Source: an uncultured Chloroflexia bacterium | GTDB taxonomy: Bacteria; Chloroflexota; Ktedonobacteria; Ktedonobacterales; JADMIN01 | DNA: 32,000 nucleotides | Direction of reading: 5' to 3' | Assembly (NCBI GenBank): GCA_963718915.1 | Contig: CAVRAI010000003.1 | Span: forward strand, 690,001 to 722,000 | Notes under the pieces: model-generated | Seen by the model: the letters and a program-made list of their open reading frames with translations, nothing else | Databases searched by the model: none | What the model was told of the DNA's origin: nothing | Shown here: positions 6,809 to 29,017 of the stretch, one piece after another | How positions within the stretch are numbered: the first letter of the stretch is position 1 | Layout: each line of letters begins with the position of its first letter | Program-made: the position numbers and the translations under genes

Positions 6809-7222
6809 ATGATGCGACGAGGTGGAGCACTGGGACGGCGCGGCCCTGGCCTGCTTGGAACGATGGCGCGAACCGCGGTGATCGCGGGGACGGCCACGGC
6901 GGTCTCCAAAGGGGTGAGTGGTTCAATGAATCAACGCGCCGCACAACAACAGACGGCGCAGCAACAGCAACAGCAGGCGGCATTTGACGCGGGCTACCAG
7001 CAGGCGCAGACGCAAGAACAGGCGCAACAACAGCAACAGCAACAGCAGCAGATGCAGGCGGCTCAGGCTCAGGCTGGGGCGCCACAGGCCGCTAGCCCGG
7101 CCTCGACTACCGATGCCATGATCGCGCAATTGCAACAACTGGCCGAGCTACAGAAGCTGGGGATTCTGACGCCAGACGAATTCGCCCAGCAGAAGGCGAG
7201 GGTTTTAGGCGGCGCGAACTAA
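6809..7222 (+). CDS. SHOCT-domain protein with a long poly-Q/A linker
   Basis: The C-terminus MIAQLQQLAELQKLGILTPDEFAQQKARVLG is a typical SHOCT motif. The N-terminus is RRGPGLLGTMARTAVIAGTATAVS. The middle is Q-rich (QQQQQQQQQM) and encoded by CAG/CAA runs at about 6950-7060. Confidence 0.8.
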   Translation: MMRRGGALGRRGPGLLGTMARTAVIAGTATAVSKGVSGSMNQRAAQQQTAQQQQQQAAFDAGYQQAQTQEQAQQQQQQQQQMQAAQAQAGAPQAASPASTTDAMIAQLQQLAELQKLGILTPDEFAQQKARVLGGAN

Positions 7223-7292: not shown

Positions 7293-7559
7293 ACAAAATA
7301 GGAGGGGCACGCCAGGAGGCAGGCGACTGAAGTCGCGCCTGAAGGGCCTGCCTGCTGCGCCTGCTGCGCACGCTCCGCCACAAAACCCGCCTGCGCGGGT
7401 TGCAGAGACGCACTCCCAACGCGTGTCGCGCGCGTGTCGCGCCGGGCAGCGTCTGGCTCTGGGGAGTCCGCGACGGCGGACTTGGTGGCCGCAGGCCCTT
7501 CAGGCGCGGTTTGAACCGCCCGCGCCCCTCCGCGCATGGCCCTCGTACTTTCTAAAACC
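7293..7559 (-). repeat. GC-rich MITE-like repeat, element A, copy 1 (inverted relative to copy 2)
   Basis: The reverse complement aligns with 13809-14075. Identical blocks include 37 nt (gggcctgcggccaccaagtccgccgtcgcggactccc), 25 nt (gcgcgggcggttcaaaccgcgcctg) and 28 nt (aggcccttcaggcgcgacttcagtcgcc). An internal long-range inverted repeat pairs cgcgcctgaagggcctgc (7334-7351) with gcaggcccttcaggcgcg (7490-7507). Confidence 0.85.
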
Positions 7560-7628: not shown

Positions 7629-7788
7629 CGCCCGCCACGACGTGTGGGGTTCGGACGAAAAAGTGAACGTTCATTACGCTACGGCCAGCATCCTCAAACA
7701 CCAACCCCAGATGTGGATACTGCGAAAAGCGGGGGCGTGATAGTCTGTCATAATGGCTATCATACCCCCGCTCGGTGATTCGGGCTTT

Positions 7789-9108: not shown

Positions 9109-9704
9109 ACCACACCTCCCGGGGTTCATTAGTTGAGGGTTCGTTCAGCGCGCACTGTCTGCGGTAAACGCGCGCGGGAGACGCATCACGGCGCTCAATG
9201 AGGATGCGCCCGACGGTTTCTCCTGCTGTGCAGCCAGGGCCTGTCGCTCCAGCGTGTGTAACGTCAACTGAAGGGAGGCTCCTGCCGCACTGCTCACTCT
9301 AAAACGAGAATCCCTGCGCCGCATGCAACAAAGGTTGCAAAAATGAAGTGGCAAGTTTTGTGAGAATACCCCTTATGGTGATGCGGTTTTGTATGATAAA
9401 GTACAGATTGCAGCCTATTCGTCGTAGGAAAACAGCCTGTTTGTATGTGTTAACAGGATCAACATACAACCATCTTAACAACTTGCTTCCTGTATCTGTG
9501 CATCGCGCTCTCAGGCCAGAAGATAGCAAATGGTATACATGGGGAAATGCTCGACAGGCGGGTGTGATCGCACAAGGCGTTGTAGGGGTGTAGGTGTGTA
9601 GGTGTATGCAGGAGGAAGACTGTGTATCAAGCGCCGCGAAGGTGTAGCTGATAGTTGCGGCCTGCGTGCGTTTGACGTTCCCCGATAACAGCGCGATAAC
9701 AGCG

Positions 9705-9749
9705 TGGCATATCTGGCGTATCTGGCATCTTTGGCATCTTTGGCATCTT
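9705..9749. repeat. 9-bp tandem repeat x5 (tggcatatc/tggcgtatc/tggcatctt x3) in the kinase-regulator divergent intergenic region
   Basis: Read directly from the sequence. It is immediately preceded by an 11-bp x2 duplication (cgataacagcg, 9683-9704) and, further upstream, by an 8-bp x3 array (gtaggggt/gtaggtgt, 9582-9605). Confidence 0.9.
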
Positions 9750-9951
9750 TAGCAAGAGTCAGGGGCGGTGCGGGCGGACGTGCGTCTGGGTATTGGCGAT
9801 CCCGCGAGGCCGAGCGGAGGGATCATTTGGTGTGCGAGAGCGGCTTCATCGAACGCTTGCGGTTGGAAGAGGCTCACACACGCGCTCAAATGAGTTCGGT
9901 ACGCGGAACAGGGATCATCGCGACAGTGCCCCACCACGAAAGAGGCGAACG

Positions 9952-13808: not shown

Positions 13809-14075
13809 GTTTTAGAAAGCACCAGGGACACGGGCTGGGCAGCGCGGGCGGTTCAAACCGCGCCTGTGGGGCCTGCGGCCACCAAGTCCGCCGTCGCGGA
13901 CTCCCAGACCGTGTCCCAACGCGCTCCCCGTTGGCGAGCGGTTCTGGGCAACCCGCGCAGGCGGGTGTCGTGGCGGAGCAGGTGCAGCAGGCGGAGCAGG
14001 CGCAGCAGGCGAGGCGCAGCAGGCGAGGCCCTTCAGGCGCGACTTCAGTCGCCAGCCGCCGTGGCGGTCCGTCGT
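13809..14075 (+). repeat. GC-rich MITE-like repeat, element A, copy 2
   Basis: See copy 1 (7293-7559) for the alignment. This copy carries its own internal short tandem arrays (gcagcaggcg-type units at about 13975-14030). Confidence 0.85.
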
Positions 14076-14078
14076 AAT

Positions 14079-15210
14079 TAACGTGAGTTCGGGATAACTA
14101 CAGGGTAACATGAACGGGCATCTCCTGCTCTTGGACGAGGGAGGGTTTCTTGGGTTGGCGGCAGTAGGCGACCAATCCGGCGAAGAGATGCACGAGGAAG
14201 TTGAGCGGGCTGCGGTGGCGGGTATGCTCAATCTGGCAGATGTTCTTGAGTTGGTCGTTGATGCTCTCAATGATCGCCCGTTTGCGGAGCAGGAGTTTGT
14301 CGGCCAGGGGCATGAGCACATGGCGCATATTTTTGCGCAGTTTGGTAATGAGGCGCAGGCGCTGAGTGAGCAAGAGCTGCTCAGCGAGCGCTGCTCAGCG
14401 AGCGCTGCTCAGCGAGCGCCGCCGAGATGTAGCCTTTGGTAGCCTTTGTCGGCGAAGAGGCGGCCGAAGAGGCGACCGAAGAGGCGGACCGAAGAGGCGG
14501 CCGAAGAGGCGATGCGTGCCACGCACCAAGCGTGGCACAGGCTGACGGTCATCGACGTTGCCGGGGGAAGACAAAACGCCAGCAGTTCGCCGCGGTCGTT
14601 GACCACCAGATGCAGTTTGAAGCCGAAGAACCAGCCCACCGAGGTCTTGCCCCGCCGGGCATCCACGCGAAAGACCCGATGCTGGTGGATGCGCGCCGGG
14701 TGACAGACCGCGAGGGCCGTCGAGTCAATGAAGCTGACACGAAGCTGACACCGGTGCAGGTTCCACATTGCGTGCGCAGGTAGACGGCGAGCGGAAGGAG
14801 GACTCGCGGCAGCAATTCGATGCAGCAATTCGATGCAGCGATTCGATGCAGCGATTGTAGCTCACGAGGTGCGGAAACTCCCGGCGCAGATGCACCTGCA
14901 CATACTCAGTATAGAACGCTTTGTATAGAACGCTTTGAAGGTGCGGTAGCCCGACTGCTGCAAGAGGATCGCGATGGTCATAATTTCACTGGGATGCAGC
15001 CGGGTCGCGCGTCGACGACGGCGCGTCCCCGAGACGAGCAACTCGCGCTCCCACCACGGCTCAAAGACCTGCCAGAACGCATCCACGGAGCAGTACAAGG
15101 CGTCCAGGTCGAGTATACTCATGACATGCCTCCATTCAGGGACTGACGGGGTGTCGTAAACCGCATCATATCTCTGTTGAAGGCATTTCGCTTATCCCGA
15201 ACTCACGTTA
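14079..15210 (-). mobile_element. IS982-family insertion sequence (about 1.13 kb) with perfect 19-bp terminal inverted repeats and a disrupted transposase
   Basis: IRs are taacgtgagttcgggataa (14079-14097) and its exact reverse complement (15192-15210). The element sits between element A copy 2 and element B copy 2. I see no convincing target-site duplication. Confidence 0.85.
14098..15122 (-). pseudogene. IS982-family transposase pseudogene, split into 3 ORFs
   Basis: Fragments are 14862..15122 ([25 protein letters not shown]), 14409..14828 ([16 protein letters not shown]...GKTSVGWFFGFKLHLVVNDRGELL...LFADKGY) and 14098..14373 ([52 protein letters not shown]). These match the IS982 transposase motifs as I remember them. 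The frame breaks coincide with the tandem duplications described in the findings. Confidence 0.85.
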
Positions 15211-22363: not shown

Positions 22364-22521
22364 CCACTCACCCCGCGGCGAGGTCGATCCCACCCCTCGG
22401 GCGGGGGCGATGACTTGCTGTGGAAACGCCACCTGGGCACAGTGCTATGGCGAAGTGTCGCGACTATACTCTGCTCACGTGCGCCGGATACGGGAGATAA
22501 CCGCGTGCAGGCCTGAATCTT

Positions 22522-22596
22522 GCGTGATGGGCGTGATGGGCGTGATGGGCGCGATGGGCGCGATGGGCGCGATGTGCGTGGTGATGTGCGCGATGT
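22522..22596. repeat. 9-bp minisatellite, about 8 units (gcgtgatgg x3, gcgcgatgg x2, gcgcgatgt variants)
   Basis: Read directly from the sequence. It is intergenic, about 100 nt upstream of the start at 22693. The long ORFs through it (RPSRPS... and MGVMGVMG...) are repeat artefacts. Confidence 0.9.
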
Positions 22597-26734: not shown

Positions 26735-27529
26735 ATGCCTGCCAACGACATCTTTCATCAGTTGAACGAATTCGTGGTTGCGGCGCTTATGTTCCTCATT
26801 CTCATCGGCGCTGGTGAGGTCGGATACCTCCTGGCTCGACGCCGACGCGCGGGCAGGAAAAACGAGACGGCTGCCGAAACCCACGAGCACCTGAATGAGA
26901 TTCAGACGGCGATCTTTGCGGTGCTCGGACTCTTGCTCGCGTTCACATTCGCTATGGCTGTTTCACGCTTTGATGCGCGCAAGCAGGCGCTGGTGGACGA
27001 GACCGACGCGATTGGGACAGCCTACCTCCGCGTCCAGTTGCTCCCACCGGGGCAGCAGCCGGCGGCAGCGGCGGTCTTCCGCACCTATGTGGACGCCAGA
27101 TTAAATTCGGCGCGTCCCTACTGGTATCTGGATGCGCGGCTGAAAAACGAGACGAACGAGCTACAGCAGCAATTGTGGACGCAAGGCACAGATGCTGCGA
27201 ACCAGGATCCGCACGCAGTCACCACCAGCCTCTATATTCAGTCGCTGAATGACATGTTCGACGCCCAGAGCGCTCGGGATGCGTCCCGGCTGAACGAGCT
27301 TCCCACGAGCGCGATCTATCTGCTTCTCGTCATCTCTATTCTCTCAACGGGGGTGCTTGGATATCGGGCAGGGCTGGGAGGTAGACGGTCGATCGTTGGG
27401 GCGGTGCTTCTCGCGCTCGTCATCACGCTCGTCGTCGGGATCATTATCGACCTCGACCAGTCCTATCAGGGTCTTATTACGATCAGCCAGCAGGCCCTGA
27501 TCCAGCTCAGACAGAGCATGGGGCCATAA
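26735..27529 (+). CDS. DUF4239-type membrane protein
   Basis: IQTAIFAVLGLLLAFTFAMAVSRFDARKQALVDETDAIGTAYLRVQLLP is the family core as I remember it. Two further C-terminal TM helices are present. Confidence 0.75.
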   Translation: MPANDIFHQLNEFVVAALMFLILIGAGEVGYLLARRRRAGRKNETAAETHEHLNEIQTAIFAVLGLLLAFTFAMAVSRFDARKQALVDETDAIGTAYLRVQLLPPGQQPAAAAVFRTYVDARLNSARPYWYLDARLKNETNELQQQLWTQGTDAANQDPHAVTTSLYIQSLNDMFDAQSARDASRLNELPTSAIYLLLVISILSTGVLGYRAGLGGRRSIVGAVLLALVITLVVGIIIDLDQSYQGLITISQQALIQLRQSMGP

Positions 27530-27636
27530 GGGGCCATAATTCAGCTCAATTGCAAGTGTACGGTAGCGAGGTATGCGCATCCAATCCAGACAAACGCATG
27601 ACCTAGCATGACCTATCCCAGAACAGGAGCGTCGCC

Positions 27637-28471: not shown

Positions 28472-29017
28472 ATGGACAGGATGACGATTCACAAGTCACA
28501 CACACACACACACACACATGCGCACGCGGGCTTTATTAGCCGCGCCATTGCCTTTGTACTCGACATTGTCGTGATGAGCGTGGCCGTGCTGGCGGCTGTC
28601 GCGCTCTTGCAGGCGCTGCTGGGCTTCTTCACCCTGTATGGGTTGGTCGGGCAACGGGTTGTCCAGTCCAGCCCGTTCCGCGATATCGTCGTCGTGGTGA
28701 TCGCGCTCATCGGCGTCGGAGTGGCCATTGGCTATCCGGTCTTCTTCTGGGTGTTGCTTGGCCAGACCCCAGGCAAGTTACTCATGGGCGTGCGCATCTC
28801 GCGGACGAACGGCCAACCGCTGACGGTCAGGCGCGCGCTGCTGCGCTACCTGGGGTACTGGCTCTCGGCGATACCGCTCGGCCTGGGGTTCTTCTGGGTG
28901 CTGGTGGACGATCACCGCCAGTGCTGGCACGATAAGCTCGCCGACACCGTTGTGATCTATGACTCGCGGTCGCCTGTCCCGCTCCCCTCAGCATCCGCGC
29001 CGCGCTCTGCTCTATAG
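28472..29017 (+). CDS. RDD-family membrane protein with an N-terminal His/Thr tail encoded by (CA)11
   Basis: RDD hallmarks: FISRAIAFVLDIVV (first Arg), three TM helices, GKLLMGVRISR, and WHDKLADTVVIY (final Asp). No in-frame start exists downstream of the CA tract that would keep the first conserved Arg, so the tract is coding. Confidence 0.85.
   Translation: MDRMTIHKSHTHTHTHAHAGFISRAIAFVLDIVVMSVAVLAAVALLQALLGFFTLYGLVGQRVVQSSPFRDIVVVVIALIGVGVAIGYPVFFWVLLGQTPGKLLMGVRISRTNGQPLTVRRALLRYLGYWLSAIPLGLGFFWVLVDDHRQCWHDKLADTVVIYDSRSPVPLPSASAPRSAL
28497..28518. repeat. (CA)11 dinucleotide microsatellite inside the RDD gene
   Basis: cacacacacacacacacacaca read directly from the sequence. It is translated as HTHTHTH. 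Confidence 0.95.

What the first reader, a model, noticed from the sequence alone, without database searches (positions are those of the whole stretch)
14079..15210. IS982 transposase inactivated almost entirely by six short tandem duplications; collapsing them restores the ORF
The element keeps perfect 19-bp terminal IRs, yet its transposase is split into three ORFs. The breaks coincide with tandem arrays whose unit lengths are not multiples of 3:
- 14 bp x3 (14377-14418);
- 10 bp x2 (14429-14448);
- 12/13 bp x~5 (14453-~14513);
- 11 bp x2 (14730-14751);
- 13 bp x4 (14809-14860);
- 14 bp x2 (14909-14936).

I collapsed each array by hand to one copy (the 12/13-bp array to one or two) on the minus strand. 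The reading frame then runs on as ...[71 protein letters not shown]... and ...[39 protein letters not shown].... That is a contiguous IS982-like transposase of roughly 295 aa. The only other lesion I can see is a 1-nt length change in the G5 run at 14563-14567, where the other frame reads PGNVDDRQPVPRLV.

The 13-bp array sits on imperfect 8-nt microhomology arms (ATCGCTGC / ATTGCTGC, minus strand). This is the signature of microhomology-mediated tandem duplication.

Gene death by duplication alone, with few visible substitutions, implies that duplication outpaces point mutation here. Whether the process is general or targets mobile DNA cannot be told from one copy.
Basis: seen in the sequence. 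Interest (0 to 1): 0.8.

Follow-up and report, generated by a model that had tools for sequence, protein, structure and literature searches.

The report
Dead jumping gene riddled with duplications
A dead copy of a common bacterial jumping gene was broken almost entirely by small stutter-like duplications, and the non-coding DNA around it carries the same stutter, so this looks like an unusual mutation habit of this soil bacterium and not an attack on mobile DNA.

Summary
Window 14079-15210 is an IS982-family insertion sequence on the minus strand, with perfect 19-bp terminal inverted repeats.

Removing the extra copies and restoring one base gives a 299-aa protein. It scores 247 bits on the NCBIfam IS982 model and is 91% identical to intact 294-aa transposases of Ktedonobacterales. 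In a DNA alignment with intact relatives, every large gap is exactly the extra array copies: 132 nt inserted against 2 nt deleted.

Three things are new:
- **The process is not IS-specific.** Perfect arrays of 9-60 bp units occur at 0.59/kb in the window against 0.03-0.05/kb in controls. Other non-coding DNA has 1.75/kb, mostly with unit lengths not divisible by three. Intact genes have 0.08/kb, all divisible by three.
- **Related sequences show the same lesion.** One long-read contig and one short-read soil contig of IS982 relatives carry it.
- **A second copy shares an array.** It lies on the same 910-kb contig and carries the same 14-bp array with three units, not two.

Four of the six arrays have only 0-2 nt of junction homology, so microhomology-mediated duplication explains only two. 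My verdict is neutral decay of a dead IS under a duplication-prone, insertion-biased mutational regime specific to this genome.

The parts
14079..15210 (-). Whole IS982-family insertion sequence. It is 1132 bp now and about 1006 bp once the extra array copies are removed.
   Evidence: Perfect 19-bp inverted repeats; the collapsed length and ORF; DNA alignment to the intact relatives L121, L122, L136 and L139.
15192..15210 (-). Terminal inverted repeat at the transposase 5' end (TAACGTGAGTTCGGGATAA on the minus strand).
   Evidence: The same 19-mer ends the related elements L121 and L122. It is also found exactly in more than 120 genome loci of many phyla.
14079..14097 (+). Terminal inverted repeat at the transposase 3' end.
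14862..15122 (-). N-terminal transposase fragment (86 aa). It is in frame for 67 aa and is then shifted by the 14-bp x2 array.
   Evidence: The database holds it as P0127, on a 910,535-bp contig.
14409..14828 (-). Middle transposase fragment (139-aa ORF). Only VSFIDST...ELLAFCL is in the true frame.
   Evidence: P0129 is the called gene.
14098..14373 (-). C-terminal transposase fragment (91 aa), from [15 protein letters not shown] to the stop codon.
14909..14937 (.). 14-bp x2 array (minus-strand unit AAAGCGTTCTATAC), +14 nt, 1 nt of junction homology. A second copy of the IS shares this array with three units.
   Evidence: Modelling three units reproduces P0128 exactly.
14809..14856 (.). 13-bp x3.7 array, +26 nt. 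It was built on ancestral imperfect 8-nt arms, ATCGCTGC and ATTGCTGC.
14730..14751 (.). 11-bp x2 array, +11 nt, 0 nt of junction homology.
14562..14568 (.). Site of the single 1-nt deletion. Relatives read CTnACCCCnGG (L-T-P-G); the window reads CTTCCCCCGG.
14453..14511 (.). 12/13-bp x4.8 array, +37 nt. It expanded from an ancestral two-unit imperfect repeat that encodes RLFGRLF.
   Evidence: Homologues all have two units (RRLFGKLFGD). P0138 has three units, in frame.
14513..14521 (.). 9-nt in-frame insertion (GTH). It creates the inverted repeat GTGCCACGC/GCGTGGCAC at 14516-14524 and 14530-14538. It may be an older polymorphism, because homologue P0003 has RVAH at the same place.
   Evidence: The coordinates were read from the sequence.
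14429..14448 (.). 10-bp x2 array, +10 nt, 0 nt of junction homology.
14376..14419 (.). 14-bp x3.1 array, +28 nt, 2 nt of junction homology.
14122..14133 (.). Imperfect in-frame 6-bp duplication (minus strand CAAGAG|CAGGAG, giving QEQE). All relatives lack it.

Best explanation
This is a dead, non-autonomous copy of an IS982-family insertion sequence in the chromosome of a Ktedonobacterales bacterium (Chloroflexota). It is decaying neutrally. Its pattern of decay reflects a mutational regime of this genome and not anything aimed at the element.

**What is shown.**
- The element's identity as an IS982-family member.
- The lesions are pure tandem copies.
- Insertion outweighs deletion.
- Such arrays are strongly enriched in this window's non-coding DNA, and only units divisible by three are found inside intact genes.
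- The same kind of lesion occurs in related sequences.
- Copy number differs between two copies of the element.

**What is inferred.** In DNA free of selection, short segments of about 9-14 bp are duplicated in tandem far more often than in ordinary bacteria. This happens at a rate comparable to or above point substitution, and well above deletion.
- Step 1: a new two-copy duplication arises with 0-2 nt of junction homology. The simplest route is fill-in and end-joining of a break with staggered 5' overhangs. Slippage between short repeats is an alternative where such repeats exist, as at the 13-bp and 12-bp arrays.
- Step 2: once two copies exist, replication slippage changes the copy number, giving x3 to x5 here and x7 to x9 in related contigs.
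- Inside intact genes, selection removes units whose length is not a multiple of three. In a dead transposase nothing removes them, so they pile up.
- The 14-bp array at 14909-14937 predates the split from a second copy on the same contig. The already defective element was therefore copied, either mobilised in trans through its intact inverted repeats or by segmental duplication.

The biochemical origin of step 1 was not tested.
For: **Identity.**
- Pfam DDE_Tnp_1_3 scores 1e-69 and NCBIfam IS982 scores 247 bits against a cut-off of 130.
- The repaired protein is 91% identical to intact Ktedonobacterales-type transposases.

**The lesions are pure tandem copies.**
- Window-specific insertions total 132 nt in six blocks, all of them extra array units. 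Window-specific deletions total 2 nt.

**The process is general.**
- Perfect arrays (unit 9-60 bp) run at 0.59/kb in the window.
- Controls give 0.053/kb over 772 kb of diverse bacterial loci and 0.029/kb over 170 kb of IS982-bearing metagenome loci.
- Within the window: coding DNA 0.08/kb (2 arrays, both 9 bp); other non-coding DNA 1.75/kb (11 arrays, 8 of them not divisible by three); the IS 5.3/kb.

**Selection signature.**
- Pooled over the window and L132-L135, intact genes hold 6 arrays with units divisible by three and 0 without.
- Non-coding DNA and pseudogenes hold 8 divisible and 22 not. Fisher's one-sided P is 0.0015.

**Other genomes.**
- L132 has 0.79 arrays/kb, and its IS982 remnant carries 12-bp x2 and 14-bp x7.4 arrays.
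- L133 has a 13-bp x7.5 array in a DUF772 transposase fragment. L134 has a 13-bp x9 array.
- L135 is a contig from a soil metagenome (by its scaffold name probably a short-read assembly). It has one perfect 14-bp x2 array with no junction homology, the only lesion seen in its 907 bp.
- L206 has an in-frame 12-bp x4 array.

**Dynamics.** P0128, on the same 910,535-bp contig, equals the window's N-terminal fragment with three 14-bp units in place of two.

**Few substitutions.**. Apart from the 12/13-bp array, the duplicated units are identical to one another.

**Neighbouring genes are intact**.
Against: - The IS has about 3 times the array density of other non-coding DNA in the window (6 observed, 2.0 expected, Poisson P = 0.016). 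Some IS-specific contribution is therefore not excluded. Intergenic DNA is not fully neutral, which would produce a difference in this direction.
- The regime is not uniform among relatives. L133 and L134 have 0.10 arrays/kb. The host of an intact IS982 78% identical to this one (L216-L225, 28 kb) has none, and its population alignment shows no tandem duplications.
- The source genome itself could not be read beyond the window, so 'genome-wide' rests on 32 kb.
- The end-joining origin of new duplications is an inference from the lack of junction homology. No Ku or LigD gene was looked for, and none lies in the window.
- Substitutions since the gene died are bounded only as 0-18.
Confidence: 0.72

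Rival explanations
1. An IS-directed process. The duplications arise because the sequence is a transposon. One route is error-prone gap repair after repeated transposase-induced breaks or excision attempts. Another is a host system that recognises repeated or mobile DNA, comparable in role to fungal RIP.
For: Array density in the IS is 3 times that of other non-coding DNA (P = 0.016). All six arrays fall within 560 bp of the transposase body. Other transposase remnants also carry arrays: L132 (IS982), L133 (DUF772) and L135 (IS982).
Against: - Eleven arrays of the same kind and size lie in ordinary intergenic DNA of the window, and most arrays in L132 are intergenic.
- Across 80 IS982 relatives from metagenomes there is about one array per 68 kb of IS body.
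- Intact relatives of this element lack all of the arrays.
- Transposase remnants are simply the largest neutral targets available.
Confidence: 0.12
2. Pure microhomology-mediated or slipped-strand tandem duplication, the first reader's mechanism, accounts for all the arrays, including their origin.
For: The 13-bp array sits on 8-nt arms that match at 7 of 8 positions. The 12-bp array grew from an ancestral imperfect 12-bp repeat. Copy numbers above two, and the 2-versus-3 difference between the two copies, are what slippage predicts.
Against: - Four of the six arrays have 0-2 nt of junction homology, as do most two-copy arrays elsewhere: at 9683, 17650, 27520 and 27596 in the window, at 393 in L135, and at 7635 and 9945 in L132. 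That is no more than chance.
- The unit-length spectrum is enriched only at about 9-14 bp. Units of 7-8 bp are not enriched, and there is a sharp stop above 14 bp. Simple slippage does not predict this.
Confidence: 0.15
3. Assembly or sequencing artefact. The arrays were created by long-read basecalling, polishing or assembly of a metagenome-assembled genome.
For: The source is a 910-kb contig. Related contigs are named contig_NNNN, a style typical of long-read metagenome assemblers; that reading of the names rests on my own knowledge. The single 1-nt lesion lies beside a homopolymer, so it could be a consensus error.
Against: - Intact genes contain only units divisible by three, while non-coding DNA contains mostly units that are not (P = 0.0015). 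An artefact would not respect reading frames.
- The neighbouring genes are unbroken.
- The same kind of lesion occurs in L135 and L206, which by their contig names probably come from short-read assemblies.
- Variant units in the 12/13-bp array indicate age.
Confidence: 0.04
4. A functional switch. The arrays are phase-variable tracts that reversibly turn the transposase on and off.
For: Copy number does vary between the two copies.
Against: Five arrays plus a 1-nt deletion are out of frame at once, so no single slippage event restores the ORF. The protein database shows no intact copy more than 91% identical.
Confidence: 0.02

Closest known systems
IS982 family insertion sequences (ISfinder family; NCBIfam NF033520; Pfam PF13612 DDE_Tnp_1_3)
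   Same: About 1 kb long after collapse, with a single DDE transposase of about 295 aa. The terminal inverted repeats are shared with other family members.
   Different: This copy is dead. It has 132 nt of tandem insertions and one 1-nt deletion, and no target-site duplication is visible.
Microhomology-mediated tandem duplications (described genome-wide in fission yeast; recalled from memory, not read here)
   Same: Short tandem duplications that insert into genes and whose copy number can change. The 13-bp array has the arm-spacer-arm structure.
   Different: Most arrays here lack arms (0-2 nt). The host is a bacterium. Unit length is confined to about 9-14 bp.
Bacterial VNTR or minisatellite loci, for example the 12-bp vrrA repeat of Bacillus anthracis and MIRU-VNTR of mycobacteria (recalled from memory)
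   Same: Arrays of 9-40 bp units with variable copy number, arising by slippage; in genes the units are in frame.
   Different: The density here is 11-20 times that of the control loci. The arrays are newly made inside a recently dead gene and are not long-standing loci.
Fill-in duplications from bacterial non-homologous end joining (mycobacterial Ku/LigD; recalled from memory)
   Same: Tandem duplications without junction homology, equal in length to a filled-in 5' overhang.
   Different: Nothing here tests whether the pathway is present or what would produce 9-14-nt staggers.
Duplication mutator phenotype of flap-endonuclease mutants (yeast rad27; E. coli polA 5'-nuclease mutants; recalled from memory)
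   Same: The mutation spectrum is dominated by short tandem duplications.
   Different: Those duplications are bounded by 3-12 bp direct repeats. Most of these are not.
Repeat-induced point mutation (RIP) in fungi
   Same: The outcome is the same: repeated mobile DNA ends up inactivated.
   Different: RIP makes C-to-T transitions and is targeted to repeated DNA. Here the lesions are duplications, and unique intergenic DNA has them too.

Membership tests
IS982 family insertion sequence | The transposase matches the family-specific model above its curated cut-off. | tested here: met
   The repaired 299-aa protein scores 247 bits on NF033520 (cut-off 130) and 233.8 bits on PF13612 (cut-off 27). 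The unrepaired sequence exists only as fragments.
IS982 family insertion sequence | DDE catalytic residues, with a K/R seven residues after the E. | tested here: met
   D116, D174/D175, E244 and K251 are invariant in the alignment with ten intact homologues. Assigning them as the catalytic residues rests on general knowledge of the family.
IS982 family insertion sequence | Terminal inverted repeats of the family type. | tested here: met
   The 19-bp repeats are perfect. The same ends occur on L121, L122, L136 and L139 and in more than 120 genome loci.
IS982 family insertion sequence | Length of about 1 kb with a single ORF. | tested here: met
   1006 bp and one ORF after collapse plus one base. 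As it stands, the element is 1132 bp with three ORF fragments.
IS982 family insertion sequence | A short direct target-site duplication flanking the element. | tested here: inconclusive
   The flanks are ...CGTCGTAAT on one side and TTTAGTAAAA... on the other. There is no direct repeat of 3 nt or more, only an inverted-like TAAT/TTTA.
Microhomology-mediated tandem duplication | The duplicated unit is bounded by matching arms of about 4 nt or more in the ancestral sequence. | tested here: not met
   Met for the 13-bp array (8-nt arms, 7 of 8 matching) and for the 12-bp array (an ancestral repeat). Not met for the 14x3 (2 nt), 10x2 (0), 11x2 (0) and 14x2 (1) arrays.
Slippage-prone VNTR array | Copy number differs between homologous copies or strains. 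| tested here: met
   The 14-bp unit is present twice in the window and three times in the second copy (P0128). Only this one array could be compared.
Targeted silencing of repeated or mobile DNA (RIP-like) | Lesions are confined to repeated or mobile sequence. | tested here: not met
   Eleven comparable arrays lie in unique intergenic DNA of the window, and most arrays in L132 are intergenic.
End-joining fill-in duplication (Ku/LigD) | The pathway is present, and the duplications depend on it. | not testable with these tools
   The source genome could not be read beyond the window. No Ku or LigD gene is among the window genes scanned.

The most novel reading that the evidence does not exclude
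Some Ktedonobacterales genomes, at least this one and that of L132, run a mutational process that has not been described.
- It makes tandem duplications of about 9-14 bp, roughly one helical turn, without junction homology.
- In neutral DNA it occurs as often as or more often than base substitution, and far more often than deletion.
- This is an insertion-biased indel spectrum in a bacterium, contrary to the general deletional bias of bacterial genomes.
- It may contribute to the very large genomes of this group, and it kills transposons quickly without any dedicated defence.
Probability: 0.4. Interest if true: 0.72.

Novelty: new variant of a known kind. Interest (0 to 1): 0.5.

Why it matters
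- **The element is ordinary; its mode of decay is not.** Bacterial pseudogenes are expected to erode by deletions and substitutions. This one gained 132 nt and lost 2 nt, and its amino-acid sequence still looks functional.
- **It would be a counter-example to deletional bias.** If the pattern holds across the genome, it is a natural exception to the deletional bias of bacterial genomes.
- **It would be a usable mutational signature.** The unit length is about 9-14 bp with no junction homology. Comparing the repair genes of genomes that have the signature with those that lack it could lead to the responsible repair or replication function.
- **Practical consequence.** Frameshifted genes in such genomes can be repaired computationally by collapsing arrays. 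Annotation pipelines would otherwise report them as unrelated fragments.

Tried and rejected
1. **Genome-collection scan with the 19-bp inverted repeat.** The repeat is conserved in IS982-type elements of many phyla. The loci served as controls for tandem-repeat density.
3. **Protein search with the middle fragment.** It found no matching middle ORF from the second copy. That copy therefore differs there or is truncated.
4. **Metagenome scan with the repaired protein.** It returned mostly intact and distant relatives (50-84% identity). These worked as a negative control but not as a survey of decayed copies.
5. **Population alignment of a related host (L216-L222).** It shows no tandem duplications, so the regime is not common to all hosts of this IS lineage.
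6. **Literature searches.** Nothing in the held library covers tandem duplications in Ktedonobacteria or duplication-biased bacterial mutation spectra.
7. **Rfam and tRNA scans of the window.** Both were empty.
8. **Readings considered and rejected.** A phase-variable switch is ruled out because too many frames are broken at once. An artefact is ruled out by the reading-frame dependence of unit length.
Full report
**1. The observation**

The region 14079-15210 is bounded by a perfect 19-bp inverted repeat, TAACGTGAGTTCGGGATAA. It occurs nowhere else in the window, even allowing 3 mismatches.

Tandem Repeats Finder reports the six arrays at the stated positions (unit splits):

| Coordinates | Unit and copies | Matches |
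|---|---|---|
| 14376-14419 | 14 bp x3.1 | 100% |
| 14429-14448 | 10 bp x2.0 | 100% |
| 14453-14511 | 12/13 bp x4.8 | 91% |
| 14730-14751 | 11 bp x2.0 | 100% |
| 14809-14856 | 13 bp x3.7 | 97% |
| 14909-14937 | 14 bp x2.1 | 100% |

The minus strand carries three transposase fragments of 86, 139 and 91 aa.

**2. Collapsing the arrays**

- I removed the extra units by script.
- Adding one base at the C5/G5 run joins them into a 299-aa protein.
- That protein matches Pfam DDE_Tnp_1_3 at 1e-69. It matches the NCBIfam IS982 equivalog at 247 bits, against a cut-off of 130.
- It is 82-91% identical over 97-100% of its length to intact 291-301-aa proteins. Some of these are named IS982 family transposase of Ktedonobacterales.
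- The protein alignment shows that the ancestral state of the 12-bp array is two units (RRLFGKLFGD in all homologues). The DDE residues are intact.

**3. Independent check with DNA of relatives**

I aligned the element with intact or nearly intact relatives from metagenomes (L121, L122, L136, L139).
- Every large gap is exactly the extra array copies: 14, 26, 11, 37 and 38 (10+28) nt, plus an in-frame 6 nt.
- Window-specific insertions total 132 nt. Window-specific deletions total 2 nt: one in the leader, and the frameshifting one at 14567.
- Relative L122 has the same C5 run, so the missing base is the A before the run and not a change in run length.

**4. How old the damage is**

- The repaired protein has 3 singleton changes at positions otherwise invariant in ten intact homologues. 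Those homologues have 0-6 each.
- At DNA level the window copy has 18 unique differences in 666 columns where four relatives agree. Each relative has 22-60.
- There is therefore no excess of substitutions. The number since inactivation lies between 0 and 18.
- Apart from the 12/13-bp array, all duplicated units are identical to each other. Variation in the 13-bp array is explained by its two ancestral arms.
- At least 9 duplication events therefore occurred in a time that left few, if any, substitutions.

**5. Microhomology**

- Only the 13-bp array has real arms (ATCGCTGC/ATTGCTGC). The 12-bp array grew from an existing repeat.
- The other four arrays have 0-2 nt of junction homology. So do most two-copy arrays elsewhere.
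- Microhomology-mediated duplication is therefore not the general origin.

**6. Is the process aimed at the IS?**

It is not, or at most weakly.

| Sequence set | Perfect arrays (unit 9-60 bp) per kb |
|---|---|
| Whole window | 0.59 |
| 120 unrelated bacterial loci (772 kb) | 0.053 |
| 80 IS982-bearing metagenome loci (170 kb) | 0.029 |
| Window, intact genes | 0.08 (two arrays, both 9 bp) |
| Window, other non-coding DNA | 1.75 (11 arrays, 8 not divisible by three) |
| Window, the IS | 5.3 |

- The threefold excess of the IS over other non-coding DNA has a Poisson P of 0.016. That is modest, and intergenic DNA is not fully neutral.
- Pooling the window with L132-L135, intact genes hold 6 arrays with units divisible by three and none without. 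Non-coding DNA and pseudogenes hold 8 and 22 (Fisher's P = 0.0015).
- This dependence on reading frame is the mark of real mutations filtered by selection. It is the main argument against an assembly artefact.
- The neighbouring genes are intact: Band_7, a trypsin-like protease, DUF1269, histidine kinases, LuxR-type regulators, a sulfatase and others.

**7. Other genomes**

- The source is a 910,535-bp contig held by NCBI and ENA. The nearest named relative of a neighbouring gene product is from a Ktedonobacterales genome bin.
- **L132**, a 24.5-kb contig from a related assembly, has 0.79 arrays/kb with units of 11-17 and 37 bp, mostly intergenic. Its own IS982 remnant carries 12-bp x2 and 14-bp x7.4 arrays.
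- **L133 and L134** have ordinary density. They do contain a 13-bp x7.5 array in a DUF772 transposase fragment and a 13-bp x9 array.
- **L135** is a contig from a farmland-soil metagenome, probably a short-read assembly by its scaffold name. It carries an IS982 relative whose only visible lesion is a perfect, homology-free 14-bp x2 duplication.
- **L206** has an in-frame 12-bp x4 array.
- **L216-L225** come from the host of an intact IS982 78% identical to this one. There are no arrays in 28 kb, and no tandem duplications among seven population variants.
- The regime is therefore specific to particular genomes and is not a property of the IS sequence.

**8. The second copy**

- The N-terminal fragment encoded in the window (P0127) clusters with P0128, a 76-aa protein on a contig of the same length.
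- P0128 is identical for 70 residues and then reads IQSVLY-stop.
- Building the window sequence with three units of AAAGCGTTCTATAC in place of two reproduces P0128 exactly.
- This duplication has only 1 nt of junction homology, so independent recurrence at the same bases is unlikely. The array was most probably inherited by both copies and then changed in copy number.
- The element was therefore already defective when it was copied. Either it was mobilised in trans through its intact ends, or it was copied by segmental duplication.
- The protein database shows no intact copy more than 91% identical. It shows no further N-terminal fragment of this element.

**9. Unit-length spectrum**

In the window plus L132-L135, arrays are not enriched at 7-8 bp. 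They are enriched about 15-25-fold at 10-14 bp and almost stop above 14 bp. I cannot explain this range. It is close to one helical turn, to the length of a bacterial RNA primer, and to the target duplications of some transposases. These are leads only.

**10. Mechanism**

- **Shown:** the lesions are tandem copies; insertion dominates; the process acts on neutral DNA generally; copy number is unstable.
- **Inferred:** new duplications arise without homology. The simplest route is fill-in and joining of staggered breaks. Slippage then expands the arrays.
- **Not tested:** which enzymes are responsible.

**11. Comparison with known systems**

- The element is a member of the IS982 family. Four of the five defining features I listed were met, and the target-site duplication was not visible.
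- The decay pattern resembles microhomology-mediated tandem duplication and VNTR behaviour but fits neither fully.
- It does not behave like a targeted silencing system.
- Searches of the held literature found no description of this pattern in Ktedonobacteria or of duplication-biased spectra in bacteria. Absence from that library is weak evidence of novelty.

**12. Verdict**

What is there is an ordinary dead IS that records an unusual mutational regime specific to this genome. Interest is moderate. It would rise if a whole-genome analysis confirms an insertion-biased, homology-free duplication spectrum.

Noticed in passing
window 9581-9754: Three adjacent tandem arrays lie within 175 bp of intergenic DNA upstream of a response-regulator gene: 8 bp x3.1, 11 bp x2.0 and 9 bp x5.6. 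Arrays tend to cluster locally. Other examples are 7350-7442, 13972-14039 (just outside the IS), 22369-22580 and 27520-27615.
   Followed up: partly
window 27520-27539: A perfect 10-bp x2 duplication (GGGGCCATAA) spans the stop codon of the bestrophin-like gene. The first TAA still terminates the protein, so the duplication is harmless. A second 10-bp x2 array lies 57 bp downstream, at 27596-27615.
   Followed up: partly
window 28497-28518: A (CA)11 microsatellite inside the RDD-family gene encodes HTHTHTH. Two proteins 95% identical to it, from other samples, lack exactly these six residues. It is therefore an in-frame expansion that varies between strains.
   Followed up: yes
window 14516-14538: A 9-nt in-frame insertion in the transposase creates a perfect 9-bp inverted repeat (GTGCCACGC ... 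GCGTGGCAC) with a 5-nt spacer. It looks like a templated, quasi-palindrome type of mutation. Homologue P0003 has a similar three-residue insertion, so it may be older than the decay.
   Followed up: partly
genome loci L001-L120: The exact 19-bp end sequence of this IS occurs in more than 120 loci from Bacteroidota, Cyanobacteria, Acidobacteriota, Chloroflexota, Pseudomonadota and other phyla. That is unusually strict conservation for a transposon end. I did not check that each locus is an IS982 element.
   Followed up: no
source contig, outside the window (protein P0165): A second, more distant IS982-family pseudogene lies on the same 910-kb contig. It is 225 aa and ends in a +1 frameshift at ...LQLVTK|APQEH. 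This one was broken by a single-base change and not by a tandem array.
   Followed up: partly
L132 3640-3751 and 10092-10194: A perfect 37-bp x3 array lies at the end of a called gene, and a 14-bp x7.4 array lies inside an IS982 remnant. The same contig has several split genes (cation efflux, MntP, ISL3 and IS3 fragments).
   Followed up: partly
protein P0251 (Logan contig, 1679 bp): An IS982 relative has an in-frame internal deletion that joins residue ~74 to residue ~271. It is a short, MITE-like derivative that keeps both ends of the ORF.
   Followed up: no
window 6936-7075: A Gln-rich repetitive stretch in the SHOCT-domain gene is made of overlapping arrays of 6-, 9-, 12- and 21-bp units, all in frame.
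   Followed up: no
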